A DNA stretch of 64,000 nt from an uncultured Calditrichaceae bacterium (GTDB lineage: Bacteria; Calditrichota; Calditrichia; RBG-13-44-9). The stretch covers positions 32,361 through 96,360 of the forward strand of contig CAZUZS010000009.1 of the NCBI GenBank assembly GCA_964624795.1, read 5' to 3'. Made by a program: the position numbers and the translations under genes. A model generated the notes under the pieces. The model saw only the letters and a list, made by a program, of their open reading frames with translations. It ran no database searches and was not told where the DNA came from. Shown here one piece after another: positions 11,222 to 61,743 of the stretch. Position 1 is the first letter of the stretch. Every line of letters starts with the position of its first letter.

Positions 11222-11230
11222 GCTTTCAGT

Positions 11231-14703: not shown

Positions 14704-14726
14704 CTCAACTCTTCCGTTTTCCCTGG

Positions 14727-16093: not shown

Positions 16094-16120
16094 TATAACT
16101 ATCCTTCTCTCGCTTCCTTA

Positions 16121-18492
<2,372 letters not shown>

Positions 18493-18734
18493 CAGGCAAA
18501 TCCCCCGGCAAGGGCACAGCATTTTCTTGTGTTCGGGCAATTATACCAAGCCATTTCCACACGGTCGATATCCATTTGCCGCCTATATCTTTTCAGATTT
18601 TTCAAAATTTCGATCTTCATAAATATTACGACCACCCGCGTTAATTTTATGAATCGCTCGGAATTCCGCCGCGTCCTCTGCCAAACCAATATGTTTAACC
18701 GCCTTCCGCACAGTGAAAGCAGATGTGTGGATTC

Positions 18735-32953: not shown

Positions 32954-35900
32954 TCATTTGGAAGCGTCCGGTTGACGGGATAATGTTTCAAAATACAATT
33001 TTATCAACTCCCGATACTCGGGTGAATATCCCTCCTGCAAGGCTTCCATCAACTCTTTTCGGAGACGATCCTCTTTTTGCAGCAGTGCCTCACGCAGCTC
33101 CGGCGGCGATTTCACAATCGCTTGCTTTTCCCACTCGGCTTGCCGCTTTTTGGAATATTCCTTTTCACGCACCGACTTCTGTGCATCCAGCAAACGGGAA
33201 AGGATACGCTCCTGCCGTTCAATTACTTTTCTATCCAGATTCTGCGCTTTTAGCTGTTTGATGACCTCATCCATCTCGCCACCCAGCTCTCCCAGCCGAC
33301 CTAACACATCCCGTCGATTCCCGTTTTCATCCGTCATTTTTTGCAGGGACTGCCGCACCATTTCCTGCTGGGCGGCGAGGCGCCCCAAATCATCGGAAGA
33401 AAGCTGCAATCGGCCCTGCTGCCCCTTTTGAAAGAGACTCATGCTTTGTTGATTTATTTGTCCCTGTTGCCCGGACATTTGCTGAAGCTGTTGCATAAAT
33501 TCCTGGAAGCCGGAGGCAGAAGAGGCCTGGGACATCTGGCTCATGGAACTTTGCAGTGAAAGTAATGCCCGGTTAAAACCAGCCATCGCCTCCCGCTGCG
33601 GCCTGGCTGCCTGGCGCCCATTGCGATTTTCAAGCTGTTCCAATGAATTATCCATCTTCGATATGATGTCGGCCATAACCTGGTTTAGCTGCGGCGAAAG
33701 GAAAAAAGTTTTATTCGAAATCTGGACCAGTTGTCCGATAATCCGGCGGGTAGCCTCCTGCAATTGTGATTGCTGCCGGGCGATTTCATTGATCTGGGAA
33801 GATGCCGGACTCAATTTTTCCGACTGCCGGGCCAGATTCTCCTGCTGGAAAGACGTTGAAAGCATGTCTTGCATCGCTTTTTGCATTTCGCCCGCTAATT
33901 CCTGTTTCTGCTGCATGTTCATATTCTGGCTGGCCATGTTCAGCATATTTTGCAGCTTCTGCATTTTGGAGCTGATCTGCTGGCCCGACTGCGAAGCTTG
34001 CTGCTGATTTCCGGAGGACATTTGCTGCTGCATCTGCTCCATCGCCTTTTCAATCTGCTCCTGATCCATGAAAGCCTTGGACTTTTCCAGCATTTCGGAC
34101 AACTGCTGCATCATCTCCTGGTAATCCTTGCGCGTCTGGTCGAGCTTGTCTTTCAGGAATTCAGTTTCTTTTTGCAGATTGTTTTCCTTTGTTTCCAGCC
34201 GGTTCATATCTTCCGGTGAGTTCTCTTTTTCAGCCAACTTTTGATTGACCTGGTCCTGCTCCTTCTTGATTTTATCGGCGAGATTAGCCAGCTCGTCCAT
34301 TTTCTGTTCTAACTGAACCCGTTTCAGTAGTTCGTAGGTTCTTTCAATATTCTTTTGAAACTGCTCCATGGAAAGCTGAAATTTTTCCATGGCTTTTTGC
34401 AGCTCACGGGGATCCGACTTCTCCAACGCCTGCCGCAGTTTTTCCATGGCATCCTTGAGCTCCGGCGATGCCAGGTCTTCCATCATCTTCTGGATTTCAA
34501 AATATTTTTCCACCGTTTCGGGGTTCAACATTTTGTTCTGGTCCAACTGCTTCACCACATCTTCCAGGTCCTTCTGAATTTCAGAAAGCTTGTCCATCGC
34601 CTTTCGCTGTTTTTCAAGCTGTTCCTTAATCTGCTGTTTTCTTTCCCAGTTGATGTCTGTTTCTTTCTTCAGCTCGCGATTGATTTCCTCCAGTTTCTTC
34701 TTCAACTCTTTCGATTCGCTGGAAACATCTTTCATCTTTTCCAATTGATCGTCCTGTTGCTGGTCTGCCTGCGACATGATTTCCAGCAACGATGGCAGCC
34801 GGATAGTAAATTCCGCAGTCTTAAAAGACTTGGGACCACTCACGTTATCGTTATCAAAAACTTCCACATAGTAGCGAATGTAATCATCCGGAACCATGTA
34901 GAAAGACGTCAGGTCCCAGGAATTTTCGCTGAAAGCCTTGCCGTTCTCTATTTTCCTATAAGGAAGTTTCATCCGAAAGCTGCTGCTGTCACCTCCCGAA
35001 CCCTGACGAATGACCTGGCCTTTCAACCAGAGACCGGAAAAACCGTAATCGTCTCGCAGTTCAACAAACAGCGGCATTTTAAGCTCATCACCCAAGTCCA
35101 CATCTGCCCCCGGCTGTTTGATTTCCGCGAACGGATATTCATCGCTGAGCGGGAAGATGCTGTATTCTACAGGATCAGAATTTTCGATGCTGTCCGAATC
35201 GAAAATATGGATTGCATAATTCAGGTTTTTGGATACTTTAAAGGCCCCATTCGCCGTATGTCCTGCAACTTGCAAGGGAAGGCGGGTTGAATCACTGAAA
35301 AGAACAAATGCCCCCGAAAGCTGCTTATCGGCTTCGATATGCAGATTTGCCAGGCTTCCCTTCAGCGTGGTGATCTCGCCATCGTTTGGCGGCAGCAATT
35401 TTGCCGGAAGTTTTGAGTAGGCAGGCGGGACAACCTTCACCTGGAGATTGCGAACCATTGGACGCGCGCGTACCACGACCCGCCCGGCAGGTGAAATTGC
35501 AGGCCTGTTGCGAAACCGCGGCTGGCCAATTTCTCCCAGGAAATAGTAGCCGAAGGAATTTCGCACATGATCCAGCTTGTAGTTGAATTGGCCTCCCGGC
35601 CGTACCTGCAAGCTGATTTTATTCACGTTTTGTTTCGAGTCCGACGGCGTCGTTTTTGCGGTATCTTCTATCACCAGGAAAAGATGCTCGGGAGTAACAC
35701 CTTCAAAATTGCCTTGCAGCACAACGGGATCGTTCCGGAGAACTCCAACATCTCCGGAGAGATTATTGAGCTTCACAGGAAGCGGTTCCTGAAAATTTTT
35801 CCAGGGAAGGACCATCTTTCTCAGGGCAAGCTCCACCGGCACCGGAAAAGCAACATAGACAACCAGAAGCGCCGAGAGGGCGGCCAACATGGGGCGGGTA

Positions 35901-36382
35901 TTTGCCAACAACGATTTGTATTTCACAACTTTCCGGAACGAAAGATGGGAGAAACGCTGGAACAATTGGGAAAGCGCCATATTTTTCAGCCTTGCGGAAC
36001 CACCACTGGCGCGATCCTGGTAGATCTGGATGTAATTCAGCAGCGCATCACGAACAGCAGAATCGGTTTGCCCAATGCGCCCCGCGGTATGAAATATTTC
36101 CACCTGTGACGGCGACGAAATTTCGCGAAGCGAAGGATAAATGCGGGTAAATCCGAATATAAAAAACCAGGCCACCAAACCGGCCGCAAAAATCAGCCGA
36201 AATGGCTCGGACACATTAAACAACAGGTTACTCAGAATAAAAAGCAGGGCAGCCGCCAGCGAAATGGAAAGAAAGTAAATGCTGTTCAGAAGTATTTTCC
36301 GCAGGAAAAATCGCCGGTGAACAGAGATGATGTGTTGATATATCCCGCGATATTTTTCGTTGATGTCCGAATCCATATTCAT
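32954..36382 (-). CDS. Large membrane protein (1142 aa) with an N-terminal double-TM anchor, a beta-rich middle domain and a ~500-aa Q/E/K-rich coiled-coil region (possibly DUF4175-like)
   Basis: The TM helices are ILLNSIYFLSISLAAALLFIL and LIFAAGLVAWFFIFGF, with a third, MLAALSALLVVYVAFPV. A long low-complexity coiled coil runs QMQQQMSSGNQQQASQ...MQQKQELAGEMQKAMQ. The C-terminus ends YSPEYRELIKLYFETLSR. Confidence 0.7.
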   Translation of the reverse strand: MNMDSDINEKYRGIYQHIISVHRRFFLRKILLNSIYFLSISLAAALLFILSNLLFNVSEPFRLIFAAGLVAWFFIFGFTRIYPSLREISSPSQVEIFHTAGRIGQTDSAVRDALLNYIQIYQDRASGGSARLKNMALSQLFQRFSHLSFRKVVKYKSLLANTRPMLAALSALLVVYVAFPVPVELALRKMVLPWKNFQEPLPVKLNNLSGDVGVLRNDPVVLQGNFEGVTPEHLFLVIEDTAKTTPSDSKQNVNKISLQVRPGGQFNYKLDHVRNSFGYYFLGEIGQPRFRNRPAISPAGRVVVRARPMVRNLQVKVVPPAYSKLPAKLLPPNDGEITTLKGSLANLHIEADKQLSGAFVLFSDSTRLPLQVAGHTANGAFKVSKNLNYAIHIFDSDSIENSDPVEYSIFPLSDEYPFAEIKQPGADVDLGDELKMPLFVELRDDYGFSGLWLKGQVIRQGSGGDSSSFRMKLPYRKIENGKAFSENSWDLTSFYMVPDDYIRYYVEVFDNDNVSGPKSFKTAEFTIRLPSLLEIMSQADQQQDDQLEKMKDVSSESKELKKKLEEINRELKKETDINWERKQQIKEQLEKQRKAMDKLSEIQKDLEDVVKQLDQNKMLNPETVEKYFEIQKMMEDLASPELKDAMEKLRQALEKSDPRELQKAMEKFQLSMEQFQKNIERTYELLKRVQLEQKMDELANLADKIKKEQDQVNQKLAEKENSPEDMNRLETKENNLQKETEFLKDKLDQTRKDYQEMMQQLSEMLEKSKAFMDQEQIEKAMEQMQQQMSSGNQQQASQSGQQISSKMQKLQNMLNMASQNMNMQQKQELAGEMQKAMQDMLSTSFQQENLARQSEKLSPASSQINEIARQQSQLQEATRRIIGQLVQISNKTFFLSPQLNQVMADIISKMDNSLEQLENRNGRQAARPQREAMAGFNRALLSLQSSMSQMSQASSASGFQEFMQQLQQMSGQQGQINQQSMSLFQKGQQGRLQLSSDDLGRLAAQQEMVRQSLQKMTDENGNRRDVLGRLGELGGEMDEVIKQLKAQNLDRKVIERQERILSRLLDAQKSVREKEYSKKRQAEWEKQAIVKSPPELREALLQKEDRLRKELMEALQEGYSPEYRELIKLYFETLSRQPDASK

Positions 36383-36476
36383 CGATCTTTAATTTGATAA
36401 TTGTTATTTGCCGGCAGAAAGTGCTGGGCGAATCGCAGAGCGCATAAATTCCCGGCTGCTTTGTTTTAGTTGGTTT

Positions 36477-37139
36477 TCAATGGGTTAATGCCCAAACCAG
36501 GATGTTCGTCCCCATTTTCAACGCGTTCTCCCGGATGTCCGGCGGGTCGCCATGAATATCCGGATCCTCGCAGCCGTCGCTGATATCGGTATTGAATGAG
36601 TAAAACGCCACCATCCGTCCATCGTAAAACAGCGCAAAACCGTGGGGCGGACCGCCATCGTGTTTGTGGATTTTGGGCAGTCCGTTGGGAAACTGGAAAA
36701 CGGTATGGTAGATCGGGTTCGAAAAAGGCAGTTCGACCCAGTCGAGCTTGGGGAAAACCCGTTTCATTTCCCGGCGAAACGATATATTCATGCCGTAATC
36801 ATCATCCGCCCAGAGAAATCCACCATGCGTGAGGAATTTGTGCAAACGGGCGATTTCCTCATCCGAGAATTTGATATTTCCGTGCCCTGCCATGTAAATA
36901 ATCGGGTACTTAAAGAAATCGTTGTCCAAAGGGCTGACGGTTACTTCCCGCTCTGCCGTACGAACATTCGTGTGCTGCCCGGCATAGTTAAACAAATTCA
37001 CAAAAGTGGTACGGTTGCCATACCAATCCCCGCCACCCCCGTACTTGACGCGTGCAATAGTTACCGGCTCCTGGGCAGGGAGAACCGCGGGCAGAATTAT
37101 CGCTCCCAACAGCATTATTATCCCTGGTATTCTTCTCAT
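36477..37139 (-). CDS. DUF4159-like secreted protein (class-I glutamine-amidotransferase-like fold)
   Basis: The signal peptide is MRRIPGIIMLLGAIILPAVLPA. The conserved block is IARVKYGGGGDWYGNRTTFVNL...IIYMAGHGNIKFSDEEIARLHKFLTHGGFLWADD. It sits 94 bp upstream of the coiled-coil membrane protein. Confidence 0.6.
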   Translation of the reverse strand: MRRIPGIIMLLGAIILPAVLPAQEPVTIARVKYGGGGDWYGNRTTFVNLFNYAGQHTNVRTAEREVTVSPLDNDFFKYPIIYMAGHGNIKFSDEEIARLHKFLTHGGFLWADDDYGMNISFRREMKRVFPKLDWVELPFSNPIYHTVFQFPNGLPKIHKHDGGPPHGFALFYDGRMVAFYSFNTDISDGCEDPDIHGDPPDIRENALKMGTNILVWALTH

Positions 37140-37439
37140 CACATTATTCCAAAACATGTTACTGGAAAATATACAAAAAATGCGATCAAAACTCAGCTGC
37201 CAAAAACAGCACTCAATGTTAATATCTCCATGTCTGCAAGTCGATCCGGCAGCGCCCTCTTGCAAAAACCGATCGGCCCGCGTTCAATATCTTCAACTAA
37301 CTGAATAAAAGGGAAACAGTTTCGCACCAATTATCAATTTTGGACAAAACAAAAGGGGAAACTGCACAAAACAGACGCTTTCGGAAGGCATCCGATCTGT
37401 TCGATGCAAAATCCCCTTAAGATTGAAAAACAATTCTAT

Positions 37440-37940
37440 TTAAAAGAACAACCTGCTTGCCACCATAACTACCATGGTTACCGAGCCAATTGCCTTCACG
37501 GTCAGTCCGCCAACCCGCCCAAGAATTGCGCCCAGTGTTGCATGAAGGGCATCTTTGAACGATTTGCCGCGGATAAGCTCGATTCCAAGTGTTCCCACGC
37601 TGACCCCGACAAAACCGCCAAGAATGGCGCCCAGAACGGGGCTGAAGAAAAATCCGCTTATACTGCCCAGAATTCCGCCCACAATGGCAGCGACAACACC
37701 CAATTTAGTGGCGCCATATCTTCGCGCACCGAAAGCGATAATGACATATTCCAACAACTCAACAGCTACTGCAATAATAAGAAGCGTAATCAGGAATGAG
37801 GTTGAAAATCGACTGAAGTCGGTTGCCAAACCGTACCAAATTGTATCCAGAACGACAATAAAATTTCCCGGAATGCTCAGAAAATTAGAAAAAATACTAA
37901 ATCCGAGTATTGCAATAAAAACAATCTCTAATACTTCCAT
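37440..37940 (-). CDS. DUF456-like small membrane protein
   Basis: Gly-rich TM helices are GVVAAIVGGILGSISGFFFSPVLGAILGGFVGVSVG. 166 aa. Confidence 0.5.
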   Translation of the reverse strand: MEVLEIVFIAILGFSIFSNFLSIPGNFIVVLDTIWYGLATDFSRFSTSFLITLLIIAVAVELLEYVIIAFGARRYGATKLGVVAAIVGGILGSISGFFFSPVLGAILGGFVGVSVGTLGIELIRGKSFKDALHATLGAILGRVGGLTVKAIGSVTMVVMVASRLFF

Positions 37941-37978: not shown

Positions 37979-38731
37979 TCAATCTGCGAATTGTTGCGCA
38001 AATTTTTTTCTGTTTTTTTGACTATTGAGGCCGATTTGGCTGAGGATGGACCGGACACCGAACCAACCGACTTTGGTGAAGCCGTATGCTTCGGTGTTAA
38101 GAAGCTTGTTGATTTTATATGCACCCAGGTGTGGGTTATCGGCAACAATGTGTTTTATCTTCTCTTCCAACGGACGCATGGAAAGCGGTAATTCTCTGCG
38201 ATGATCTCTTACCTCGGCTGATGCTGAAATTGGCTCGACCTTTCCGTCCGGCGCAGAAGCCGATCTTGGCTTTGGCGGCAGATAGGATTCTTCCTCTTCT
38301 TCAGCCGCGGGACTGGCGCTCTGCACCCCGGCAGACTCTCGTATTACGGTAGCGGCTGCTTCCGGCTTTCGTGCAACTTCCTCAAATTTCATTATTGCAT
38401 CTTCTGTGGCATCGTAAACATCCAGTATATGATGAAATTCAAGCAGTTCAAAAATCTCATACACATCGGGAATCATTCGAACCAGTTTAAGGTCGCCGTT
38501 GTGCTCACGGATGGATTTGATTTCGCTGATAAAAATTCCCCAGCCGGCCGAACTGATGTAATCAACGTTTCCAAGGTCGATGATAATGTTATAACGATTT
38601 TGTTTCAGGAGACTATTTAAGGCGCGTTCAACCTCGGAAGATGTGGTCGTATCAATAAAACCTCCAACCTTTATGATGGAGACCTGATTTTGACTTCCCG
38701 CTACCTCAGTCGATACTTGAATGCCTTCCAT
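37979..38731 (-). CDS. STAS-domain (anti-sigma-factor antagonist-like) protein with a C-terminal HTH-like extension
   Basis: The STAS region is VSIIKVGGFIDTTTSSEVERALNSLL...IIIDLGNVDYISSAGWGIFISE. The C-terminal ~90 aa, IKHIVADNPHLGAYKINKLLNTEAYGFTKVGWFGVRSILSQIGL, resembles the HPxxGPRKI...VSxSTVxRIL HTH of IS481-type transposases. Confidence 0.75.
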   Translation of the reverse strand: MEGIQVSTEVAGSQNQVSIIKVGGFIDTTTSSEVERALNSLLKQNRYNIIIDLGNVDYISSAGWGIFISEIKSIREHNGDLKLVRMIPDVYEIFELLEFHHILDVYDATEDAIMKFEEVARKPEAAATVIRESAGVQSASPAAEEEEESYLPPKPRSASAPDGKVEPISASAEVRDHRRELPLSMRPLEEKIKHIVADNPHLGAYKINKLLNTEAYGFTKVGWFGVRSILSQIGLNSQKNRKKFAQQFAD

Positions 38732-38808: not shown

Positions 38809-41562
38809 CTAATCAACTTCTCTTTCTTTTTTCTCTGCCTGTTCTGCTACGCTTTCACTATTATCGTCAGCTTCATGATTTTCTGAAGTTGTATCTATAG
38901 GAGTTTGTTTTTCTATTTCCCCATCTTCCGGCGGCTTTTGCTCCCGCCCCGATTCCTGAGCAGGTTCTTCGGCCGGGATTTCAGGCATTGGTTCTGCCGC
39001 CTCCGGGTGTTCTTCGTCCGATCGCCGGCCCTTTACAGTTAGCATTTTTTCCCGCGATTTGATGTTGGCGGCCGGGGTCGCTACGGTGAAGACATTTGGA
39101 ATGCTTTCCTGCTCGTCTGACCGGAAACCGACCATCACTTCGCCATCCAGGGTAAGAAGCGGTGTGCCGGGCGGTTTGAGCCGGCGTTTGCCACCCCGCT
39201 GAATAAACATTTGGCGCTGTTTTTTAGTATTTAATTTAGCCCGTATTAACTCTTCGTATATAGCTCGCGGCGCCAATTCAATATTACCATATTTTTCAGT
39301 GTTTAGCGCCCCGCTGATGCGCTTGGGACCATATTCAGGATGTTCCCTGATAACATCATAAAGCTTTGTTTTTACTTCAATGCTCAAATGGCGAAGACCT
39401 ACGTTGGTATACTCATGGAGCAGTTCCCTAAGCGCAGTTATTCCGCCTTCGACATACATTTTCTTATATTTGTAATATGTTGTCGTCGATACCCCGATTT
39501 GCTGGCAGGCCTGTGCGACAGTTACATCGCTTTGCCCGGCAAGTTCGAACAATTCCTTGAACATGTCTATTTTGACATCAACCGCATCCATATTTTCCTT
39601 AAACGCAACCAGCGTCACATCATCACTCTGCTCATATCCGTTGGTAAAATTGAGAATATCCTCTTTTACATTTTTCACAAAATCGACAACATCCAGGTGC
39701 CCGTTGCGACGAATGGCAGCAAGGAACCGCTCCTCACCATAAAGCTCCCGGCTGGGATTCATTGCTTCGGTGATGCCATCGGTATAGCAGACCAGGATAT
39801 CATCGGGGTGCAGCCGGATGCGATCCGCCTTAATGGTTGTGTCAAATAGTCGAATATCGGGAAGCGTAATTCCAACCGGAAATCCCGGAGGATTCAGGTA
39901 ATAAGTTTCCTTAGTCTTGCCGCGGAAAAGAATCATGGGATTGTGGCCGGCGCTTGAGAAAGCAATCGTCCGCTCCCGGGAATCCAGGATAATATAGAAT
40001 GCCGTGACGAACATGCCTTTGCGAATATCGTCGGTAATGAATGAGTTTACCCGGGCTAACACTTCCGCCGGATTTCTATTGCCGCGCGCTTCCAGCCGCA
40101 GGGCAGTGCGGATCATAGTCATAACCATCGATCCCGGAACGCCTTTACCGGATACGTCCGCGACGCAGATTCCGGTGGTATGCTCGTCCACTTCCACGAA
40201 ATCGAAAAGATCTCCTCCCACTTCCTTGGCTGCCTGGTAGTAAGAAGTGATATCGTAACCAATGACATTCGGAAAGTCATCGGGAAGAAGCATCTGCTGG
40301 ATTTCCTGTGCAACCTGCAGCTCACGCTGCATGCGCTGCTGTTCCATCAGGTTCACCTGGGCTTCGCGGAATTTGCTGGTCATCTCGTTAAATGCTTGCG
40401 CAATCTCGCCCAGCTCATCGCTGCCGTCGATATCAAGTTCATCCTCATCAACCGTGCCGTGCCCAACCTGACGCACCCAGCCGGCCAACTTGTGGAATGG
40501 ATCCATGATAAGGGTGATCAACACAAATGAACCGCTGTATCCCACAACCAGGACAATTAGCAGCAGGAGCAACAGGTTGACCCGGCTATTGAATATTTTA
40601 TGCTCAACAAAATTCCGGTTTATCCAAATGTGGGCATACCCAAGCGGCGGCGTGTCCGCCCCCTGGATGCTGATGGGAGTCACAAAATCGAAAACCACGC
40701 TGTCGGCAGCCAGCGTACGCTGGTAGACCAGCGTTTGACCAATAGAATCGACAAATTGCTCGTTCTCCGTAATTAGCGGCTTACCGTCCAGAATCATGTC
40801 TTCTTTCATGGGATAAGTAGTGCGCGGGCGTTGTCCGGTATCGGTAATTACTACAAGGGAAATCATTTTGGGATTGCTCTCTTTTACGGACTTCGCATTC
40901 TCCGACAAAATGATAAAATCGTCTTTGCTCAACGGTTCCCATGAAATTTTGGACAGGCTCACGCTCTGCGAATACCCGCTCTCGAATATTTCACTGGTCG
41001 TATTTTCCCGGATACGGGAGTTGAAAATAATGAAGGAGACAATTGCCAGAATGGTCATAATCGCGGAAGTAACCAGCGTGAATTTGGTTCGCAGGGTGAG
41101 CGAATCCCAGACCATAAATGGTTTAGTGCGCTCCACCGTTTCCCGCATTTTGGTCAGGCGCAGCTCATTTCCCCGACTGGTTACATTATACTTAATGTCA
41201 TCCATTAGCTTGCGCATCATGAAAATGCCCAAGCCGCCTTTCTTGCCGATGGAGACATATTTATCGAGATCTGGATTCTTTACCTGCCGGGGATCAAAGC
41301 TTTTTCCATGATCGATGATGACGATCGTCAAACTCAGGCTGCGAACAATAGCGCGAATGATGATCTGTCCATTCCGAATATCGCGATATCCGTGTCGGAT
41401 GATATTGGTGCAGGATTCATCGACCACCAGTTTGAAGGAATTGATGACCTTGTGGGTGAAACGGTATTTTCTTCCGATGTGCTCGATGAAATCTCTCACC
41501 TGCCGCAGGTAGGACATCTGCGCCGGAATAATAATCTCTTCTTTTACAACATTTTTAAACAT
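38809..41562 (-). CDS. Multidomain partner-switching protein: N-terminal RsbW/SpoIIAB-like GHKL kinase, 2-TM periplasmic sensor, HAMP, PP2C (SpoIIE) phosphatase and a C-terminal transposase-type HTH
   Basis: The GHKL domain is LVVDESCTNIIRHGY...IVIIDHGKSFDP...KKGGLGIFMMRKL. The TM helices are FTLVTSAIMTILAIVSFIIF and LLLLLLIVLVVGYSGSFVLITLIM. The HAMP segment is LGEIAQAFNEMTSKFREAQ. The PP2C domain is VGGDLFDF...ICVADVSGKGVPGSMVM...SAGHNPMILF...LVCYTDGITEA. The C-terminal segment is IGVSTTTYYKYKKMYVEGGITALREL...VIREHPEYGPKRIS. Confidence 0.85.
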   Translation of the reverse strand: MFKNVVKEEIIIPAQMSYLRQVRDFIEHIGRKYRFTHKVINSFKLVVDESCTNIIRHGYRDIRNGQIIIRAIVRSLSLTIVIIDHGKSFDPRQVKNPDLDKYVSIGKKGGLGIFMMRKLMDDIKYNVTSRGNELRLTKMRETVERTKPFMVWDSLTLRTKFTLVTSAIMTILAIVSFIIFNSRIRENTTSEIFESGYSQSVSLSKISWEPLSKDDFIILSENAKSVKESNPKMISLVVITDTGQRPRTTYPMKEDMILDGKPLITENEQFVDSIGQTLVYQRTLAADSVVFDFVTPISIQGADTPPLGYAHIWINRNFVEHKIFNSRVNLLLLLLIVLVVGYSGSFVLITLIMDPFHKLAGWVRQVGHGTVDEDELDIDGSDELGEIAQAFNEMTSKFREAQVNLMEQQRMQRELQVAQEIQQMLLPDDFPNVIGYDITSYYQAAKEVGGDLFDFVEVDEHTTGICVADVSGKGVPGSMVMTMIRTALRLEARGNRNPAEVLARVNSFITDDIRKGMFVTAFYIILDSRERTIAFSSAGHNPMILFRGKTKETYYLNPPGFPVGITLPDIRLFDTTIKADRIRLHPDDILVCYTDGITEAMNPSRELYGEERFLAAIRRNGHLDVVDFVKNVKEDILNFTNGYEQSDDVTLVAFKENMDAVDVKIDMFKELFELAGQSDVTVAQACQQIGVSTTTYYKYKKMYVEGGITALRELLHEYTNVGLRHLSIEVKTKLYDVIREHPEYGPKRISGALNTEKYGNIELAPRAIYEELIRAKLNTKKQRQMFIQRGGKRRLKPPGTPLLTLDGEVMVGFRSDEQESIPNVFTVATPAANIKSREKMLTVKGRRSDEEHPEAAEPMPEIPAEEPAQESGREQKPPEDGEIEKQTPIDTTSENHEADDNSESVAEQAEKKEREVD

Positions 41563-41622: not shown

Positions 41623-43527
41623 CTACTGTTTCGTCCTTTTGATCCTATCTTCGGCACTTTTTATCGCATCCTGTAATTTCTTGCTGTAAGGATACTTTTT
41701 CTGCAGTTCTTTCCAGATCTCCAGCGCATCCGAGTACCTTCCGGCCAGGAACATATCGACACCCTTAATATACATCCTTGCCGATTCCTGATCCATTTCT
41801 TGTTCAACAACTCCCATTCCTCGCTTGGTTCGCTCAATATATTGTTTCAGTCGCTCATTGGACGGATCCATTTTTAATGCCTCGTCAAACAACTGAAGCG
41901 CCTTCTGGTAATCGCCCAGGTCGTAAAGCTGCAGTGCCTGCTGCACATACTGCTGTATTTTGATGCGATTGGCCAGGGTGCTGATCTCATCCTTCAATTT
42001 CGGATCTTCCGGCGCCAGAACCAACGCCTCACTTAAAATCTGCAGCGCGTCGGAATAGTTGCCCCCCTGGAACTCTTCCCGGCCCTTTGTTACCAGTTTA
42101 CGAACTTCTTCCTCCAGCCGACGGTCGGTCGAAGCAATCGCATCCTTTATTATCGGATCATCCGGCGATCGCTCCAATGCCAGGTTGAATTCGACAAGCG
42201 CATCAGTGAACTGGTTATTCTGGAGATAAACATTACCCTTATCGAAATGCAGTTTCACGAAAGTCCTGTTTTCTTCGGCCATCTCTTTATTAACTGCATT
42301 TTTGATTGCCGCCTGTTGGCGATTCTCAAAATCCTTCTGAATAAGGCGGTCGGTGCTGTCCAGCAAGGCATTTGCCGGCTTATTGAACGGGTCCACCGAA
42401 ACCACGCCCTGGAATTCAGCATAGGCGTCGAAATAGCGATTCTGATCCAGGTATTCCTTTCCCTTTTGGGTATGCTCGGTAATGAAATTTTGCTTTTCCT
42501 GTTCTTTGGTGCGATCCACGAGTTCCTTCTCGCGGCGCTTTCTCGCTTCTTCGGCGATCAGCAACATTTCTTCACGCGATTTGCCGATATCGAATGTAAT
42601 GGAAAAACGGTGGGTTGGCGGGAATGCGCCGTCGGCATTTATCGATCCGAACGAATAATCGATATGCATGAAAGAATAATTCAAACCCGCACCAAACGCC
42701 AGGTGGCTGTTGTCGAAACCAAGGCGGACGGTTCCCATCTCACGGAATGTGTACTCGGTGCCGGCTAATAAAGCAGCGCTTTCGTTTTTGCTCATGTGAT
42801 AATCAATCGCCACTCTAATCTGGCCGCTTTCTCCTATCTGCAAACCTTTGCTCAATCCTAATGTCATCAAGTATGGCTCGTTTTCAATCACGTTGCCAAG
42901 TTTCAGGTCCGGAGACACCAGGTTTCGGTAGCTCAGACCAAACGACAGGTTTTGCAGCAAATTATTTTCCCACTGTGGCCGGTACATCATCCCGATATCC
43001 AATCCCAGGCCGGTAGCATTGTTATTTATTTCAGTAAACTGCTGGCGCCTGATTTTGGTGGTAATGCCGCCAATCAGGTTGTATGGCAGCTTTTTGCTGT
43101 AAGAAAAATACAGCTCGCTCTCGTCGTACGACATTTGCCCCAGCCGCTCGTTCGTGGTAGTAACCACCGGAATATCACCGGTTCCCAGGCGAGTGTAACC
43201 AAGCCCTACCGTGCCGTAGGTGAGCGTCGGGTATACAATCCCTACAAAATCGTACATGGTTCCCTCAAACACCTGATCATGGAAAAGCGTGAAACTGAGA
43301 CGGGGAATCAACTCCAGCCCGGCAGGATTCCAGAAAACTGCCGTGGGGTCATTCGCTACCGCTACATAGGCACGTCCCAGACCCAGGGCACGCGCACCGA
43401 CACCATAACTTAGGGGCAATGTAGTGCCGTATTCGCCATCCGATTGGGCCGATAAAAGAGCGGGAAGTAATAGGACTCCATACAGACCAACCAGCCATTT
43501 TCCTGCAGATTTCATTATTTTGCGCAT
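41623..43527 (-). CDS. Outer-membrane beta-barrel (FadL/PorV-like N-terminal signature) fused to C-terminal TPR repeats
   Basis: The signal peptide is LVGLYGVLLLPALLSAQ. The signature GVGARALGLGRAYVAVANDPTAVFWNPAGL matches the FadL / PorV (LptO) family start. A ~300-aa barrel ends in an aromatic-rich strand. A ~300-aa helical TPR-like C-terminus contains repeated ...ALQLYDLGDYQKALQLFDEALKMDP. It starts 14 bp after the giant gene's stop. Confidence 0.6.
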   Translation of the reverse strand: MRKIMKSAGKWLVGLYGVLLLPALLSAQSDGEYGTTLPLSYGVGARALGLGRAYVAVANDPTAVFWNPAGLELIPRLSFTLFHDQVFEGTMYDFVGIVYPTLTYGTVGLGYTRLGTGDIPVVTTTNERLGQMSYDESELYFSYSKKLPYNLIGGITTKIRRQQFTEINNNATGLGLDIGMMYRPQWENNLLQNLSFGLSYRNLVSPDLKLGNVIENEPYLMTLGLSKGLQIGESGQIRVAIDYHMSKNESAALLAGTEYTFREMGTVRLGFDNSHLAFGAGLNYSFMHIDYSFGSINADGAFPPTHRFSITFDIGKSREEMLLIAEEARKRREKELVDRTKEQEKQNFITEHTQKGKEYLDQNRYFDAYAEFQGVVSVDPFNKPANALLDSTDRLIQKDFENRQQAAIKNAVNKEMAEENRTFVKLHFDKGNVYLQNNQFTDALVEFNLALERSPDDPIIKDAIASTDRRLEEEVRKLVTKGREEFQGGNYSDALQILSEALVLAPEDPKLKDEISTLANRIKIQQYVQQALQLYDLGDYQKALQLFDEALKMDPSNERLKQYIERTKRGMGVVEQEMDQESARMYIKGVDMFLAGRYSDALEIWKELQKKYPYSKKLQDAIKSAEDRIKRTKQ

Positions 43528-43541
43528 AATATTAACACTGT

Positions 43542-46500
43542 TTATTTGATATATGCTACTTTGGTTTTATAACTTTTTGATTGACCATCACTATACCGGA
43601 TGTTAAGAATTGCAATATAGACCCCATTCAACACCCGGTTGCCGGCATTATTCGTCCCGTTCCAGATCAACCCATTATTGTTGTGACCGTCATAAAGCTG
43701 ACCACCGGTGAAACTTTTCTGCTGCGAATAGACAAGCCCGCCCAGCAGAGTGTAAATCCGGATCTCGGCGGTGCCATTTTTCTCCATCCAAAAAACGAAA
43801 TTGGTGGAAGCCTCATCCATGCCGAAAGGATTTGGATGGTTGCCAAATATCTTGTCCTTGTCACCAGAAATAACCGTCAGCGCATAAGAACCGCCGACGT
43901 CCCCGCCGGAGCTAAAGAGATTGCCCTGCTCATCGACAATCTCGACCGGGTTGTCATGCGACCCGGTAAATGCGCGGATCGACCCAACATGCAGTTTAAA
44001 GCTCTGGTTCGGTGATTGGCGGCTAAGATTAAGCAGGACGACCAAACTGTCTTTAACGCCGGGTATAATATTCAGGTGATTCGTGAACTCAAGTGGAATT
44101 TCGTCGCCGTCCGCAGATGTGACATCATAGGCGGCGAAGACAGTTGGCGCAGAACCCACTTTTTGCAGATTTCTGAGATATGCCCGGTTCACGATCTTGA
44201 CGGAGTCTATCAGTGAGGAAGGGTTTAATACCGGCGATCCATCGAGCTGTTGCACCAGCAGGCTTAAGCTGTCAATGGTCACAGTAGGCACAAACTCCGA
44301 GACTTTCCGGTTATCGAACACCAGCCCGATAAGCGGCACGTCTTCGGTTCCCTGTTGCCGGATAACATTTTCCTGCTGGCTGAACTCCAATGGTATTACT
44401 ACCAGGCGATGAACTTCGGTAGCAATGGAAAGCGTTGCCGAGCTGCTGTCCGGATCAAGCGCCGCCGGTTGGGCAGTGTTAACATCATTCGGGACCTGGA
44501 CAAACTGCGCCCCGATTCCGGTGCTGATGATTTGCCGTGGCGTCCTCAAATCCCAGCTTACCGAATCCGGGTAAGTGAAAGATTTGACCTGCGTTTCGCC
44601 CGATGCCAGGGCGATAGAATCCTGCGGGTTGAGCTGCAGCCGCAACTGGCCCTGCCCGGAGAGTTGTGCATCTCCCTTATTCCTTATCTTTGCCACCACC
44701 GTGAACGACTGATCAAATGAAAGCCGGTGACCTCCGCCGGTATCGGGCCGGCCTTTGATCCGCAGCCGGAGGCTGAGCATAGCCTTTCGTTCCAGCACGA
44801 AATTGCCGGAGGAATCGGAAGCCAGGGCCTGGCCGCTGTTTGCATCCGTGGCGGCAACCGCAACTTGCAGCGGTATCGTGGTCGGACCGTCGATCGTCGC
44901 CGGTGCCTGTATCTGCCAGCTCACCGATGTTCCGGTAAAGGACTTGGTGGAATCCGGAACCTGCATTCCGGTAATTCGCAATACTGCTGATCGCCGCTCG
45001 CTCACCTGGCTGGAAGCCTCGATTTCGGTCTGCACCGTGAACAACTGGCCAGTGCTGATCCTGGGCTGTGTCTGAATCCCTGCTATTCTAAACAGGGCGC
45101 TTTCCTGAATGACTATGGGCGTCTGCACCTGTGTGACGGTGGTAGAGGCCGTTTGATTGGTCAGCGAATCTTTCGGAATCTGGTTGTAAGTAACAGCAAG
45201 CATCGATGCATTCACAATGTTAACAATCTCGTCATAGAGATCGTTAATTTGCTGTTTTATTCGGCCGGCCCCTGCCGCGAAAGCAGAACCTTCCACGGGC
45301 ATACCTTCCATTGGTGTTTGCATGTGCTGTTGTTTTGCCTGAAGGTTCCGCACCCTGGACATGAGCGCATTCACCTGGCTGTTGCTGTCAACCCGTACTG
45401 TCCAGGTTACCGGCTGATCAACAACGAACGGCTTTACCGGATCCTGGTTCACGAGCTGCAACGAACTGCCGGGCGTCAGCCGCAGTGAAGCAGCGCCGGT
45501 AACTCCCGCCTGGCCGGTATTGCGCACTGTCGCCTGGTAGGTAAATGTCTGACCGTAACTTACCGTATCGTCGCGTGCTCCGGCAGGTTCGGTGATTTCA
45601 GCGCTGAGCGCCAATGTCGCCCGCGTGATTGCCCGCAGCCTCACGAAAGCCGTGTCGCGCAGCGTGAGGTTGTTCACCGGCGAAGTCGACTCTGTGATCA
45701 CCCGAATCACCTTGTCTTGCTGTGTTGCAGTTCCGGGTGCCTTCAAATACCATGTGACCGAACTGTCGGACGGGATAAGCTGCTGTTGATTGCTGGTACT
45801 TGTAACCCCCGATGGCAGCGTAAGTGTTGCCAACCGGTTTTCGGTAAACAGCGGATTCAGATTTACCTTCACTTCCAGCGGTATGCTGTCCTGGTTAGTA
45901 GAAACGGTGATGCTGGTGTCATTCACATTACTGAAGAAATGGAACGACTGAATGGAGAAATTGCCCAGATCCAGCACCCGGATTCCGAAGGTGCGGGTGG
46001 AATCGGATTTAAATACCGGCACGGTGGCGTAATTATTCTCATCATAATACAGCGTGTCATTCAAAATCTTGGGTAATGAGATCGTAAAATCGTGTGAACC
46101 GCCGCTGTTCGAACTCTGCAAATTCCACCTCAGGGTGTCTCCAATTCTCATTGAATGAAGCGTATCGCCCTGCGAAAGCGAAAATGCGCTTGCATCATAG
46201 CGGAGGTGAACCGGTATCTTATTTCCAGGCGAAACGCCGGCTGTCCCTGTATTGGTGACAATCGCCGAAATTTCGAATGGCTGATTTAAAGCCAGGGTGT
46301 CGGGGTAATCCAACACATTAACGTGCAGGTTGGCGCGTTCCACGATGCGCATATCGGTGAAGCGCACCAGGCCGGTATCGACGAACGCCGGCTGGCCGGA
46401 ATTGATATCGATAGCTGCATTGATAATTTGCGCTAAGATAGTTTGCCGATCCGGGTAGGCTGTCGCGGATGTGTAAATTGAATTGACAACAGTGCGGTTC

Positions 46501-61721: not shown

Positions 61722-61743
61722 AATTGCTTCCTGTACTCTTTGA

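What the first reader, a model, noticed from the sequence alone, without database searches (positions are those of the whole stretch)
38809..41562. Single 917-aa polypeptide fusing an RsbW-type serine kinase, a membrane sensor, HAMP and a PP2C phosphatase
In canonical partner-switching modules (RsbT/RsbU/RsbV/RsbW, SpoIIAB/SpoIIE/SpoIIAA) the anti-sigma GHKL kinase and the PP2C phosphatase are separate proteins acting antagonistically on a STAS antagonist. Here the opposing kinase and phosphatase activities on a STAS substrate, which is encoded 77 bp downstream, appear to sit in one chain. That chain contains a GHKL kinase domain at the N-terminus, a 2-TM periplasmic sensor with HAMP in the middle, and a SpoIIE-type PP2C further on. 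This would make the phosphorylation state of the STAS partner a direct function of the periplasmic signal. The GHKL-first domain order is also unusual.
Basis: partly seen in the sequence, partly recalled or inferred. Interest (0 to 1): 0.8.

Follow-up and report, generated by a model that had tools for sequence, protein, structure and literature searches.

The report
Membrane receptor fusing STAS kinase and phosphatase
A real, conserved 917-residue membrane protein of Calditrichota carries both the kinase and the phosphatase that act on a neighbouring STAS switch protein; such fusions are already known (SypE of Vibrio fischeri), but this version is a transmembrane receptor and always sits beside a giant surface protein and its outer-membrane partner.

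Summary
ORF 38809..41562(-) encodes 917 aa: RsbW-type GHKL kinase (12-138), TM1, a PDC/Cache-like periplasmic domain (183-328), TM2, HAMP, a coiled linker and a SpoIIE-type PP2C. A STAS gene lies 77 bp downstream, and its S61 aligns with the phospho-serine of RsbV and SpoIIAA. It is not an assembly artefact: more than 120 full-length homolog clusters and 70 genomic loci share the architecture, including cultured Caldithrix abyssi, and all catalytic motifs are invariant.

The novelty claim is overstated. SypE has the same kinase, input domain, PP2C order and acts on the STAS protein SypA. Rv1364c also fuses both enzymes, and a Prevotella relative has the reverse order.

- A basic, transposase-like HTH module follows the PP2C, and its second half recurs at the C-terminus of the STAS protein (hhalign 97.5%).
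- No sigma-factor gene is linked.
- The pair belongs to a four-gene cassette (giant Ig-repeat protein with a T9SS-like C-terminus, PorV/PorQ-TPR barrel, fusion, STAS). The PorV/PorQ-TPR gene lies directly upstream in 48 of 50 loci across Calditrichota, KSB1-like lineages and FCPU426.

Verdict: an uncharacterised new variant of a known kind, moderately interesting.

The parts
38809..41562 (-). Whole gene for the 917-aa kinase / sensor / HAMP / PP2C / HTH fusion protein (called KP917 here)
   Evidence: ORF; domain hits; full-length homologs
41149..41529 (-). N-terminal RsbW-type GHKL serine kinase domain (residues 12-138). N-box E49/N53, G1 D84-x-G86 and G2 G109-G-L-G112 are all invariant.
   Evidence: PF13581 E 9.4e-28. 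Aligns to B. subtilis RsbW 6M36 at E 7e-18 with the motifs matched. Foldseek TM 0.88-0.91 to RsbW. Invariance.
41017..41085 (-). Transmembrane helix 1 (about residues 160-182)
   Evidence: Hydropathy peak of 2.4; AF2 helix 157-212
40579..41016 (-). Periplasmic sensor domain (residues 183-328) with a PDC / single-Cache-like fold. Poorly conserved: 23% identity across the family.
   Evidence: The AF2 model has pLDDT about 90 and shows a long helix, short helices and a six-strand sheet. The FCPU426 ortholog gives a weak sCache_3_2 hit. DcuS-type hit at E 1.3e-5. Conservation.
40507..40578 (-). Transmembrane helix 2 (about residues 329-352)
   Evidence: Hydropathy peak of 2.7; AF2 helix 316-367
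40372..40521 (-). HAMP domain (residues 348-397)
   Evidence: PF00672 E 4.5e-9, 36.9 bits against a cutoff of 25
40288..40371 (-). Conserved helical linker between HAMP and PP2C (residues 398-425). The wider 398-459 stretch is 71% conserved.
   Evidence: Analogy to linker-mediated control of RsbU-type phosphatases (PMC12143880).
39592..40287 (-). SpoIIE/RsbU-type PP2C phosphatase domain (residues about 426-657). The acidic and Gly motifs D451, D469, G472-K-G474, H540, D595-G596 and D647-D648 are invariant.
   Evidence: PF07228 E 6.1e-51. PDB alignments to RssB, Rv1364c, SiaA and SpoIIE. Foldseek. Invariance.
39409..39588 (-). First helix-turn-helix sub-module (residues 659-718), HTH_23/28/29-like. 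Absent from some distant family members.
   Evidence: Pfam E 9e-5 to 2e-4, below the gathering scores. IS481 transposase N-terminus at E 2e-10 over residues 671-784. AF2 pLDDT 80-86. Absence in L055 and L066.
39181..39408 (-). Second, basic HTH_32-like sub-module (residues 719-794). Present in all family members and homologous to the C-terminus of the STAS protein.
   Evidence: BLASTP E 2e-6. hhalign probability 97.5%, E 6.9e-12. Mean net charge +8.3. Presence in distant members.
39142..39177 (-). Invariant short motif KPPGTPLLTLDG (residues 796-807), function unknown
   Evidence: Invariant in 43 sequences. Present in Calditrichota and KSB1 and, in variant form, in one long paralog; absent from FCPU426 and the L030 group.
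38812..39141 (-). Acidic, disordered, poorly conserved C-terminal tail (residues 808-917). In other lineages it is replaced by longer tails ending in TPR repeats.
   Evidence: pLDDT about 30; net charge -17; composition; TPR tails
37979..38731 (-). Gene for the 250-aa STAS partner protein. It comprises a STAS domain (1-117), a variable Pro/Ala-rich linker (118-178) and a basic C-terminal module (179-250).
38549..38551 (-). Codon for S61, the predicted phospho-acceptor (second Ser of DYISSAGWG)
   Evidence: Aligns with the serine of the conserved D-S motif in TM1442 (1SBO), SpoIIAA (1TH8) and RsbV (6M36). That this serine is the phospho-acceptor is established knowledge for RsbV and SpoIIAA. 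The motif is invariant in 55 orthologs. Codon checked.
37982..38197 (-). C-terminal basic HTH_32-like module of the STAS protein (residues 179-250)
   Evidence: Homology to KP917 residues 719-794. Conserved in Calditrichota and the L030 group but absent from the 120-aa FCPU426 STAS proteins. Mean charge +8.5.
41623..43527 (-). Upstream gene: PorV/PorQ-family outer-membrane beta-barrel (residues 39-314) fused to C-terminal TPR repeats. It lies 60 bp before KP917.
   Evidence: NF033709 at 128.7 bits against a cutoff of 90; TPR hits. Directly upstream of the KP gene in 48 of 50 loci. Orthologs in FCPU426, the L030 group and KSB1 also pass the cutoff.
43542..61820 (-). Giant (about 6060-6092 aa) Big_1/CARDB-repeat surface protein with a T9SS-type C-terminal domain. 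First gene of the conserved cassette; the likely true start is the ATG at 61721.
   Evidence: C-terminus resembles the PorU/PorZ C-termini. CHU_C E 2.6e-5, below the gathering score. Conserved position.

Best explanation
KP917 is a transmembrane, probably dimeric, bifunctional regulator of a STAS switch protein. It works like a receptor-type counterpart of SypE.

Its N-terminal RsbW-like kinase domain phosphorylates S61 of the STAS protein encoded 77 bp downstream, and its C-terminal SpoIIE-type PP2C removes that phosphate. Both catalytic domains face the cytoplasm and flank a 2-TM, PDC/Cache-like periplasmic sensor. A signal sensed in the periplasm passes through TM2, HAMP and the conserved helical linker to switch the phosphatase, and possibly through TM1 to affect the kinase. 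This sets the ratio of unphosphorylated (active) to phosphorylated (inactive) STAS.

No sigma-factor gene is linked. The pair is almost always preceded by a giant T9SS-type surface protein and a PorV/PorQ-TPR outer-membrane protein. The module therefore most likely reports on, or regulates, that cell-surface apparatus rather than a general stress sigma factor.

The basic HTH_32-like module is shared by enzyme and substrate. It probably anchors both to a common polyanionic partner, with DNA the most likely candidate, or to each other. The STAS domain would then work on a flexible roughly 60-residue leash.

Shown: the domain identities, the intact motifs, the membrane topology pattern, the homology of the shared module, and the synteny. 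Inferred: the enzymatic activities, the direction of signalling, the nature of the signal and the output.
For: - Domain calls pass the curated thresholds.
- The kinase aligns with crystallised RsbW and SpoIIAB with the N, G1 and G2 boxes conserved. The PP2C aligns with RssB, Rv1364c, SiaA and SpoIIE with the acidic motifs conserved.
- These residues are invariant or nearly so in 57 sequences spanning Calditrichota, KSB1-like lineages and FCPU426, while the periplasmic domain is only 23% conserved, as expected of a sensor.
- Structural matches include Rv1364c PP2C+RsbW (3KE6), SiaA-PP2C and RsbW in complex with RsbV.
- STAS S61 aligns to the serine of the conserved D-S motif in three solved antagonists, and DYISSAGWG is invariant in 55 orthologs.
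- A STAS gene lies within 30-290 bp downstream in nearly all cassette loci, and only its ribosome-binding site is conserved in the spacer.
- Two TM helices flank a confidently modelled PDC-like domain.
- The SypE precedent shows that an N-terminal kinase, a central input domain and a C-terminal PP2C can control a STAS protein with a non-sigma output.
- HAMP- and linker-mediated control of RsbU-type phosphatases is described in PMC12143880.
- The cassette is conserved in 48 of 50 loci.
- The shared module is supported and is basic, about +8 in both proteins.
Against: - No biochemical data exist for any family member.
- The output is unknown. A sigma factor encoded elsewhere could still be the target, because the kinase domain is most similar to the anti-sigma factor RsbW.
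- The KSB1 loci L037-L040 and the long paralogs lack an adjacent STAS gene, so the pairing is not universal.
- FCPU426 STAS proteins lack the C-terminal module although the enzyme keeps it. A simple module-to-module docking model therefore cannot be general.
- The T9SS C-terminal domain call for the window's giant protein is below threshold.
- Gene order alone does not prove a functional link with the PorV-TPR and giant genes.
- The AF2 model is a monomer, with low confidence in the HAMP and linker region.
Confidence: 0.6

Rival explanations
1. It is a canonical partner switch tethered to the membrane. The N-terminal domain is a true anti-sigma factor that holds a sigma factor, encoded elsewhere in the genome, at the inner membrane. 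Dephosphorylated STAS displaces that sigma factor. The cassette neighbours are merely part of its regulon, or are unrelated.
For: The best NCBIfam and PDB matches of the N-terminal domain are RsbW and SpoIIAB, which are both kinases and anti-sigma factors. In Chlamydia, RsbW acts with a transmembrane RsbU although the genes are not all adjacent (abstracts).
Against: None of the roughly 70 loci has a sigma-factor gene in the cassette. The only sigma-like gene in the window lies 30 kb away. SypE/SypA and SiaABC show that RsbW-like kinases often act without a sigma target. The very tight linkage to the PorV-TPR and giant genes across phyla is not explained.
Confidence: 0.2
2. It is a membrane-anchored transcription factor system. 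The bipartite transposase-like HTH of KP917 and the HTH_32-like module of the STAS protein bind DNA directly. Phosphorylation of the STAS domain then controls DNA binding or co-regulation of the cassette promoter, so that a STAS-HTH protein itself is the output.
For: There is HMM similarity to IS481, IS630 and IS3 transposase DNA-binding regions (E 2e-10; Pfam HTH families). The modules are confidently helical and strongly basic in both proteins. The top, non-significant structural matches are bipartite DNA-binding domains: TnsB, Mu and Tc3 transposases, and Pax6.
Against: The Pfam scores are below the gathering thresholds and the structural matches are not significant. No conserved operator-like sequence was found in the KP-STAS spacer. 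FCPU426 STAS proteins lack the module. Related tandem HTH modules are also fused to membrane glycosyltransferases, where a DNA-binding role is not obvious. This rival overlaps with the best explanation, because it concerns only the output step.
Confidence: 0.2
3. The N-terminal GHKL domain is a degenerate pseudokinase that only docks the STAS protein. The protein would then be functionally just a sensor phosphatase of the Chlamydia RsbU or SiaA type, with the real kinase encoded elsewhere.
For: The TM2-HAMP-PP2C half matches SiaA (NF038263, E 7e-21; 6K4E). SiaA works with a separate kinase, SiaB (my own knowledge).
Against: The N-box Glu/Asn, the G1 DxG and the G2 GGLG are invariant across lineages that share only 37-46% identity overall. 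They align exactly with the ATP-binding motifs of RsbW and SpoIIAB. The domain is as conserved as the PP2C (64% against 68%).
Confidence: 0.07
4. The fusion is an artefact: a frameshift, a chimeric assembly or a wrong start codon that joins separate kinase and phosphatase genes.
For: None found.
Against: There is a single uninterrupted ORF. A protein 100% identical is recorded from NCBI (P0001), and more than 120 clusters of full-length homologs come from independent NCBI, JGI, ENA and Logan assemblies. The same gene is present in the finished Caldithrix abyssi chromosome. The N-terminus is invariant.
Confidence: 0.01

Closest known systems
SypE / SypA of Vibrio fischeri
   Same: One polypeptide carries an N-terminal RsbW-like (HPK-like) serine kinase, a central signal-input domain and a C-terminal PP2C serine phosphatase. 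Its substrate is a STAS protein encoded in the same locus. The locus concerns cell-surface or biofilm functions and no sigma factor is involved. A conserved Asn in the kinase N-box is required (N52 in SypE, N53 here) (PMC3610818; PMC8256260).
   Different: SypE's central domain is a cytoplasmic receiver (REC) fed by a phosphorelay. Here the central part is TM1, a periplasmic PDC/Cache-like domain, TM2 and HAMP, so the protein is itself the receptor. KP917 adds a C-terminal bipartite HTH and a tail, and its STAS partner carries a linker plus an HTH_32-like module, whereas SypA is STAS-only. Sequence-level orthology to SypE was not tested because no SypE sequence was available in the tools.
Rv1364c of Mycobacterium tuberculosis (PDB 3KE6)
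   Same: It fuses an RsbU-type PP2C and an RsbW-type kinase in one chain, and it is the top structural match of the model (Foldseek E 1.3e-11; sequence E 7e-10).
   Different: Its order is PAS, PP2C, kinase, STAS, with the kinase after the phosphatase and the substrate domain fused as well. It is cytoplasmic, with no TM segments, HAMP or HTH.
Transmembrane sensor phosphatases: Chlamydia RsbU, P. aeruginosa SiaA, HAMP-PP2C proteins
   Same: They share the layout of a periplasmic sensor, TM, HAMP and a SpoIIE/RsbU-type PP2C acting on a STAS-like partner. The SiaA model matches residues 318-655 (E 6.8e-21), and 6K4E is the second-ranked structural match. HAMP-PP2C is listed as a common architecture in PMC12143880.
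   Different: In those systems the opposing kinase (RsbW, SiaB) is a separate protein. Here it is fused ahead of TM1.
Prevotella-type dCache_1-HAMP-SpoIIE-HATPase_c_2 proteins (loci L072/L073)
   Same: They are membrane sensor, HAMP, PP2C and RsbW-like kinase in one chain, followed 31 bp later by a 100-aa STAS gene.
   Different: The kinase is C-terminal, so the order is reversed. The sensor is a double Cache domain, there is no HTH module, and there is no PorV/giant-protein cassette. Identity to KP917 is only about 28%.
OsaC of Streptomyces coelicolor
   Same: It is a multidomain regulator combining an RsbW-like kinase domain, PAS/GAF sensors and a PP2C. The kinase-first order is from my own recollection of Fernandez-Martinez et al. 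2009. The papers read here confirm only the PAS/GAF and phosphatase parts and its role in SigB control.
   Different: It is cytoplasmic, acts on the SigB pathway, and has no TM segments, HAMP or HTH.

Membership tests
Partner-switching module (RsbU/RsbV/RsbW, SpoIIE/SpoIIAA/SpoIIAB type) | GHKL (HATPase_c_2) serine kinase with intact N, G1 and G2 ATP-binding boxes | tested here: met
   PF13581 at 97.2 bits against a cutoff of 27.4. Alignment to RsbW 6M36 at E 7e-18 with E49/N53, D84xG86 and G109GLG112 matched. Invariant in 43-57 sequences.
Partner-switching module (RsbU/RsbV/RsbW, SpoIIE/SpoIIAA/SpoIIAB type) | PPM/PP2C phosphatase of the SpoIIE/RsbU subfamily with conserved metal-binding aspartates | tested here: met
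   PF07228 at 173.5 bits against a cutoff of 25. D451, D469, D595 and D647/D648 are invariant. Alignments to RssB, Rv1364c, SiaA and SpoIIE.
Partner-switching module (RsbU/RsbV/RsbW, SpoIIE/SpoIIAA/SpoIIAB type) | STAS antagonist with a conserved phosphorylatable Ser, encoded next to the kinase | tested here: met
   PF01740 at 65.2 bits and TIGR00377 at 67.8 bits against a cutoff of 53.45. S61 aligns to the serine of the conserved D-S motif in 1SBO, 1TH8 and 6M36. Invariant in 55 orthologs. The gene lies 77 bp downstream.
Partner-switching module (RsbU/RsbV/RsbW, SpoIIE/SpoIIAA/SpoIIAB type) | A cognate sigma factor encoded in the same operon and bound by the kinase | tested here: not met
   No sigma gene is present in the cassette in the window or in related loci. 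The only Sigma70_r2 protein in the window is at 7533..8441, 30 kb away. Binding to a distal sigma factor cannot be tested here.
Partner-switching module (RsbU/RsbV/RsbW, SpoIIE/SpoIIAA/SpoIIAB type) | Demonstrated phosphorylation and dephosphorylation of the STAS serine | not testable with these tools
   This requires biochemistry.
SypE-like bifunctional kinase/phosphatase regulators | N-terminal RsbW-like kinase and C-terminal PP2C in one chain, with an input domain between them | tested here: met
   Domain order 12-138 / 160-397 / 426-657. SypE's architecture is described in PMC3610818.
SypE-like bifunctional kinase/phosphatase regulators | The central input domain is a response-regulator receiver (REC) | tested here: not met
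   There is no Response_reg hit. The central region is TM, a PDC-like domain, TM and HAMP.
SypE-like bifunctional kinase/phosphatase regulators | Sequence orthology to SypE | not tested
Single-Cache / PDC extracytoplasmic sensor domains | A long N-terminal helix followed by an alpha/beta PDC core between two TM helices, with a profile match to a Cache family | tested here: inconclusive
   The AF2 secondary-structure pattern and pLDDT of about 90 fit. Only weak profile hits were found: sCache_3_2 at E 3e-5 in an FCPU426 ortholog, below the gathering score, and a DcuS-family hit at E 1.3e-5. The isolated domain was not fold-searched.
Transposase-type (IS481/IS630/IS3) bipartite HTH DNA-binding domain | Profile match to the HTH_23/28/29 and HTH_32 families | tested here: inconclusive
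   The window protein scores 16-23 bits, below the gathering scores of 24.6-33.7. The IS481 model matches residues 671-784 at E 2e-10. Many orthologs carry precomputed PF13384, PF13518 and PF13551 hits. Fold searches gave only generic HTH matches. DNA binding cannot be tested here.
T9SS PorV/PorQ family (upstream neighbour) | NCBIfam NF033709 above the curated cutoff | tested here: met
   128.7 bits against a cutoff of 90 in the window. Orthologs L046, L030 and L039 score 94.1, 114.4 and 132.4. The equivalog models for PorV and PorQ proper are not reached, so this is a paralog with an added TPR region.
T9SS cargo (giant neighbour) | A C-terminal sorting domain (Por_Secre_tail or CHU_C) above the gathering score | tested here: inconclusive
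   In the window, CHU_C scores 24.7 bits against a gathering score of 27 (E 2.6e-5). In L046, FlgD_ig scores 32 bits, above the gathering score, and Por_Secre_tail has E 2.8e-4. There is similarity to the PorU and PorZ C-termini.

The most novel reading that the evidence does not exclude
The four-gene cassette (giant T9SS-type surface protein, PorV/PorQ-TPR barrel, transmembrane kinase/phosphatase, STAS protein) is an ancient, self-contained surface-sensing device of Calditrichota, KSB1 and FCPU426. In this reading the periplasmic Cache-like domain monitors the state of the giant protein or of its PorV-TPR anchor. The output would not be a sigma factor but a STAS protein whose own transposase-derived basic HTH module binds DNA. 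Partner switching would then be wired directly to a DNA-binding STAS protein, with the enzyme carrying the same module so that it sits at the same site.
Probability: 0.15. Interest if true: 0.75.

Novelty: new variant of a known kind. Interest (0 to 1): 0.5.

Why it matters
Partner-switching modules are among the most widespread bacterial signalling devices. Two things are poorly understood for most of them: how the kinase and phosphatase activities are balanced against each other, and what the non-sigma outputs are. The target of SypA, for example, is still unknown.

This family places the sensor, the kinase and the phosphatase in one membrane protein. The signal-to-phosphorylation relationship could therefore be reconstituted with only two proteins.

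The family is conserved across several little-studied phylum-level lineages and is present in the cultivable Caldithrix abyssi. Its strict association with a giant surface protein and a PorV/PorQ-TPR outer-membrane protein gives a concrete, testable candidate for what such a module senses or controls. The HTH-like module shared by enzyme and substrate is a feature I did not find described for partner-switching systems, and it could reveal a new tethering or output mechanism.

None of this overturns current understanding. It extends a known design.

Tried and rejected
- Frameshift or assembly artefact: rejected by full-length homologs from many independent assemblies and a finished genome.
- Linked sigma factor: all ORFs of at least 150 aa in the window were scanned. 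Only a distant ECF-like gene was found, at 7533..8441.
- Promoter and terminator scan of 36-44 kb: counts were no higher than in shuffled sequence, so it says nothing about operon structure.
- Conserved operator in the KP-STAS spacer: the alignment of 16 loci shows only the Shine-Dalgarno sequence conserved.
- PDB sequence search with the HTH region: no hits even at E of 10.
- Literature searches for this architecture, for a STAS or partner-switching link to T9SS, and in the C. abyssi genome paper: nothing describes this family.
- The look-up of encoding contigs with the exact window protein: not on record, so the source contig name was not recovered. Taxonomy is inferred from homologs to be Calditrichia/Calditrichaceae.

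Full report

Yes. The minus strand carries one uninterrupted ORF at 38809..41562 (ATG start, 917 aa). A second ORF at 37979..38731 (250 aa) starts 77 bp after its stop codon.

Pfam places three domains on the large protein, all well above the curated cutoffs:
- HATPase_c_2 at residues 12-138 (E 9.4e-28)
- HAMP at 348-397 (E 4.5e-9)
- SpoIIE at 460-655 (E 6.1e-51)

NCBIfam's best hit for the N-terminus is the anti-sigma-B factor RsbW (E 1e-21), and for residues 318-655 it is the sensor phosphatase SiaA (E 7e-21). Hydropathy gives two membrane segments, at about 160-182 and 329-352. The 250-aa protein is a STAS/anti-sigma-factor antagonist (PF01740 E 5e-18; TIGR00377 above its cutoff) and contains DYISSAGWG.

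A protein search found more than 120 clusters of full-length homologs (53-100% identity) with the same three domains, from NCBI, JGI, ENA and Logan assemblies. A scan of one genome per species returned 76 loci, about 70 of which have the same layout. The finished chromosome of the cultured Caldithrix abyssi encodes a 1201-aa ortholog. Homologs are named Calditrichia, Calditrichaceae or Caldithrix, so the window is from a Calditrichota genome. The exact contig could not be traced.

**2. Anatomy**

*Kinase.* Residues 9-126 align to crystallised B. subtilis RsbW (6M36) at E 7e-18. The N-box (VDESCTNIIRHGY against VSEACTNAVQHAY), G1 (IDHGKSFD against ADEGDSFD) and G2 (GGLGIFMM against GGLGLYLM) are all matched, and SpoIIAB aligns likewise. 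In a 57-sequence alignment spanning all lineages, and in a 43-sequence alignment of database proteins, E49, N53, D84, G86 and G109-G112 are invariant.

*Phosphatase.* The motifs GGD(451), D469-V-S-G-K-G, G-H540, T-D595-G and D647-D648 are invariant. They align with the corresponding motifs in RssB, Rv1364c, SiaA and SpoIIE.

*Structure.* An AlphaFold2 model built with a 43-sequence alignment has mean pLDDT 72. By Foldseek its best match is 3KE6, the fused RsbU and RsbW domains of Rv1364c. Next come SiaA-PP2C, RssB, RsbX and SpoIIE. The kinase domain matches RsbW in the RsbV/RsbW complex with TM 0.88-0.91.

*Sensor.* Residues 183-328 are modelled at pLDDT of about 90. A long helix continues from TM1, followed by short helices and a six-strand sheet that leads into TM2. 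This is the PDC/single-Cache pattern. Supporting profile hits are weak: sCache_3_2 in an FCPU426 ortholog and a DcuS-type hit. The domain is the least conserved part of the protein (23% against 64-71% for the kinase, HAMP, linker and PP2C), which is typical of ligand-binding domains. Because HAMP directly follows TM2 and the N-terminus has no signal peptide, both catalytic domains should be cytoplasmic and the 183-328 loop periplasmic. That topology is an inference.

*STAS.* In HMMER alignments to solved structures, the query VDYISSAGWG pairs with VSYMDSAGLG (TM1442), LTFMDSSGLG (SpoIIAA) and VSYMDSTGLG (RsbV). S61 therefore occupies the position of the serine in the conserved D-S motif, which is the established phospho-acceptor of RsbV and SpoIIAA (established knowledge of those families). 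The motif is identical in all 55 orthologs extracted.

**3.

(a) *A C-terminal HTH region.* After the PP2C come two helical sub-modules, at 659-718 and 719-794 (pLDDT 80-91). They resemble the bipartite HTH_23/28/29 plus HTH_32 DNA-binding region of IS481, IS630 and IS3 transposases. The IS481 model matches at E 2e-10, although the Pfam scores fall below the gathering thresholds. An invariant motif KPPGTPLLTLDG (796-807) follows, then an acidic disordered tail.

(b) *A three-part STAS protein.* It has a very conserved STAS domain (1-117), a variable Pro/Ala-rich linker, and a conserved C-terminal module (179-250). That module is homologous to KP917 residues 719-794 (BLASTP E 2e-6; hhalign 97.5%, E 6.9e-12). 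Both copies are strongly basic, with means of +8.3 and +8.5, whereas the STAS domain is acidic at -9.

The module is rare. A search of 1.84 billion representative proteins found 355 hits. The strong ones sit at about positions 650-820 of KP-like proteins, or are fragments. Of the weaker ones that I scanned, most are membrane family-2 glycosyltransferases with tandem N-terminal HTH modules. Every family member examined keeps the second sub-module. FCPU426 STAS proteins (120 aa) lack it. Fold searches of the isolated module gave only generic or non-significant HTH matches.

(c) *The genomic context.* The gene 60 bp upstream (41623..43527) is a PorV/PorQ-family outer-membrane barrel (128.7 bits against a cutoff of 90) fused to TPR repeats. 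Just upstream of that (43542..61820) is a protein of about 6,000 aa made of Big_1 and CARDB repeats. Its last 95 or so residues resemble the C-termini of PorU and PorZ, and they hit the CHU_C T9SS signal domain just below threshold.

The order giant protein, PorV-TPR, KP, STAS holds widely. Among loci with enough flanking sequence, the PorV-TPR gene is directly upstream in 20 of 20 Calditrichota loci, 14 of 14 mid-distance loci and 14 of 16 distant loci (FCPU426 and others). This is so even where the PorV-TPR proteins share only 23-30% identity. The distant orthologs pass the PorV/PorQ cutoff independently, and the neighbouring genes there are also giants. The two exceptions are long TPR-tailed paralogs.

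STAS follows KP in 26 of 26 Calditrichota loci and in most others, but not in the four KSB1 loci or beside the paralogs. The downstream genes (DUF456, DUF4159, DUF4175, patatin-Omp85) are syntenic only within Calditrichota.

No sigma-factor gene occurs in the cassette. The only one in the window is 30 kb away.

**4. Most likely mechanism**

The evidence best supports a transmembrane, bifunctional STAS kinase/phosphatase. The RsbW-like domain phosphorylates S61 and the PP2C reverses it. The periplasmic PDC-like domain, acting through TM2, HAMP and the conserved linker, sets the phosphatase activity. Control of RsbU-type phosphatases through N-terminal sensor domains and crossing helical linkers is described as general, with HAMP among the listed input domains (PMC12143880). 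Whether the kinase is constitutive or reciprocally regulated through TM1 is unknown.

By analogy with SypA, unphosphorylated STAS would be the active form. The output is unresolved. Conserved linkage points to the giant surface protein and its PorV-TPR partner as the thing sensed or controlled. The shared basic module suggests that both proteins are anchored to DNA or to another polyanionic partner. A distal sigma factor cannot be excluded.

The steps that are shown are the domain identities, motif integrity, homology and synteny. The steps that are inferred are the activities, the topology, the signal and the output.

**5. Comparison with known systems**

The closest functional analogue is SypE. 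[quoted passage not shown] It requires kinase residue N52, and its output lies downstream of transcription and has no known sigma factor (PMC3610818; PMC3999984; PMC8256260). KP917 has the same order, but the receiver is replaced by a 2-TM sensor plus HAMP.

Three other comparisons are relevant:
- Rv1364c fuses the two enzymes in the opposite order and adds a STAS domain.
- Chlamydia RsbU, SiaA and the HAMP-PP2C proteins share the receptor-phosphatase half but have separate kinases.
- Prevotella proteins (L072/L073) show the reversed membrane-bound fusion dCache-HAMP-PP2C-kinase, with a STAS gene 31 bp downstream.

Both the fusion and the kinase-first order therefore have precedents. What is new here is the combination of features. 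The kinase sits ahead of TM1, so the two enzymes flank the membrane sensor. A transposase-like HTH module is present on both enzyme and substrate. The cassette is conserved. Literature searches found no description of this family or of a link between partner switching and T9SS-type surface proteins. Database names are automatic, for example "serine phosphatase RsbU / anti-sigma regulatory factor".

**6. Verdict**

The feature is a genuine, ancient and uncharacterised variant of a known design, the SypE-like bifunctional partner-switching regulator, and not a new category. Interest is moderate at 0.5. A specialist would not be startled by the fusion itself. The receptor format, the shared HTH-like module, the strict association with a giant surface protein and its PorV/PorQ-TPR partner, and the presence of the system in cultivable Caldithrix abyssi together make it a good, tractable system for studying non-sigma partner switching.

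Noticed in passing
window 43542..61820 (-): A giant ORF of about 6,060-6,092 aa; the likely true start is the ATG at 61721, which gives a signal peptide MTKRLLRVISILFLFISGVFA. It is built of Big_1 and CARDB/DUF11-like repeats, with internal near-identical repeats of several hundred residues visible in the translation. It ends in a T9SS-like C-terminal domain (CHU_C, E 2.6e-5, just below the gathering score). C. abyssi has a 4,710-aa counterpart.
   Followed up: partly
window 41623..43527 (-); L046 8265-9926; L030 7609-9723; L039 7921-9888: A PorV/PorQ-family outer-membrane barrel is fused to a C-terminal TPR region of about 300 aa. This paralog family is conserved next to the giant protein across Calditrichota, KSB1-like lineages and FCPU426. 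I did not find such a PorV-TPR fusion described in the papers searched.
   Followed up: partly
proteins P0310, P0331, P0340, P0361, P0373, P0375, P0339, P0350: The nearest non-orthologous relatives of the HTH module are proteins with two tandem transposase-type HTH modules at the N-terminus, fused to processive family-2 glycosyltransferases (500-1,730 aa). This suggests that such HTH modules are fused recurrently to envelope or polysaccharide machinery. Their taxonomy and context were not examined.
   Followed up: no
window 39142..39177 (-), KP917 residues 796-807: The short motif KPPGTPLLTLDG directly after the HTH region is invariant in 43 sequences. It is also present in KSB1 orthologs (PGTPMLTLDG) and in a long paralog (PGTPQLSLNG), but absent from FCPU426 and the L030 group. 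No function is known.
   Followed up: partly
loci L053, L055, L056, L057, L065: These are long paralogs (1,250-1,990 aa) of the kinase-sensor-HAMP-PP2C protein, with very long acidic linkers and C-terminal TPR repeats. They lie outside the PorV/giant cassette and have no adjacent STAS gene. One genome (JBHHXT01) carries both a cassette copy (L034) and such a paralog (L055).
   Followed up: partly
loci L072 and L073 (Prevotella MAGs): The reverse-order fusion dCache_1-HAMP-SpoIIE-HATPase_c_2 (778 aa) is followed 31 bp later by a 100-aa STAS gene with motif EYISSSGLR. This shows that membrane-bound kinase/phosphatase fusions also exist in Bacteroidota.
   Followed up: partly
window 30064..32754 (-): An 896-aa protein combines a patatin-like phospholipase, POTRA repeats and an Omp85 barrel. 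From my own knowledge this is the architecture of type Vd secretion proteins such as PlpD. It is syntenic with the cassette within Calditrichota only.
   Followed up: no
window 32954..37940 (-): Three membrane-associated genes directly follow the STAS gene with short gaps: DUF456 (37440..37940), DUF4159 (36477..37265) and a 1,142-aa DUF4175-like coiled-coil protein (32954..36382). They are conserved in this order in Calditrichota, including C. abyssi, but not in the other lineages.
   Followed up: partly
window 61744..62238 (-) and 62348..63499 (-): A small 164-aa protein with a signal peptide and no family match ends just before the giant gene. It is preceded by a 383-aa TPR protein. Both may belong to the same transcription unit. 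Conservation could not be checked because the fetched loci do not reach that far upstream.
   Followed up: no
window 5904..8441 (-): A 481-aa protein with a clear T9SS C-terminal sorting domain (FlgD_ig, Por_Secre_tail) lies next to a 302-aa ECF-like sigma factor (Sigma70_r2). This shows that the organism has T9SS-type cargo. No link to the finding is evident.
   Followed up: no
window 10472..18540 (-): A housekeeping LPS cluster: an LptB-like ABC ATPase, LptA/LptC-like proteins, a KdsD-like SIS-CBS protein, a KdsC-like phosphatase, KdsA (DAHP_synth_1), CTP synthase and KdsB (CTP_transf_3).
   Followed up: no
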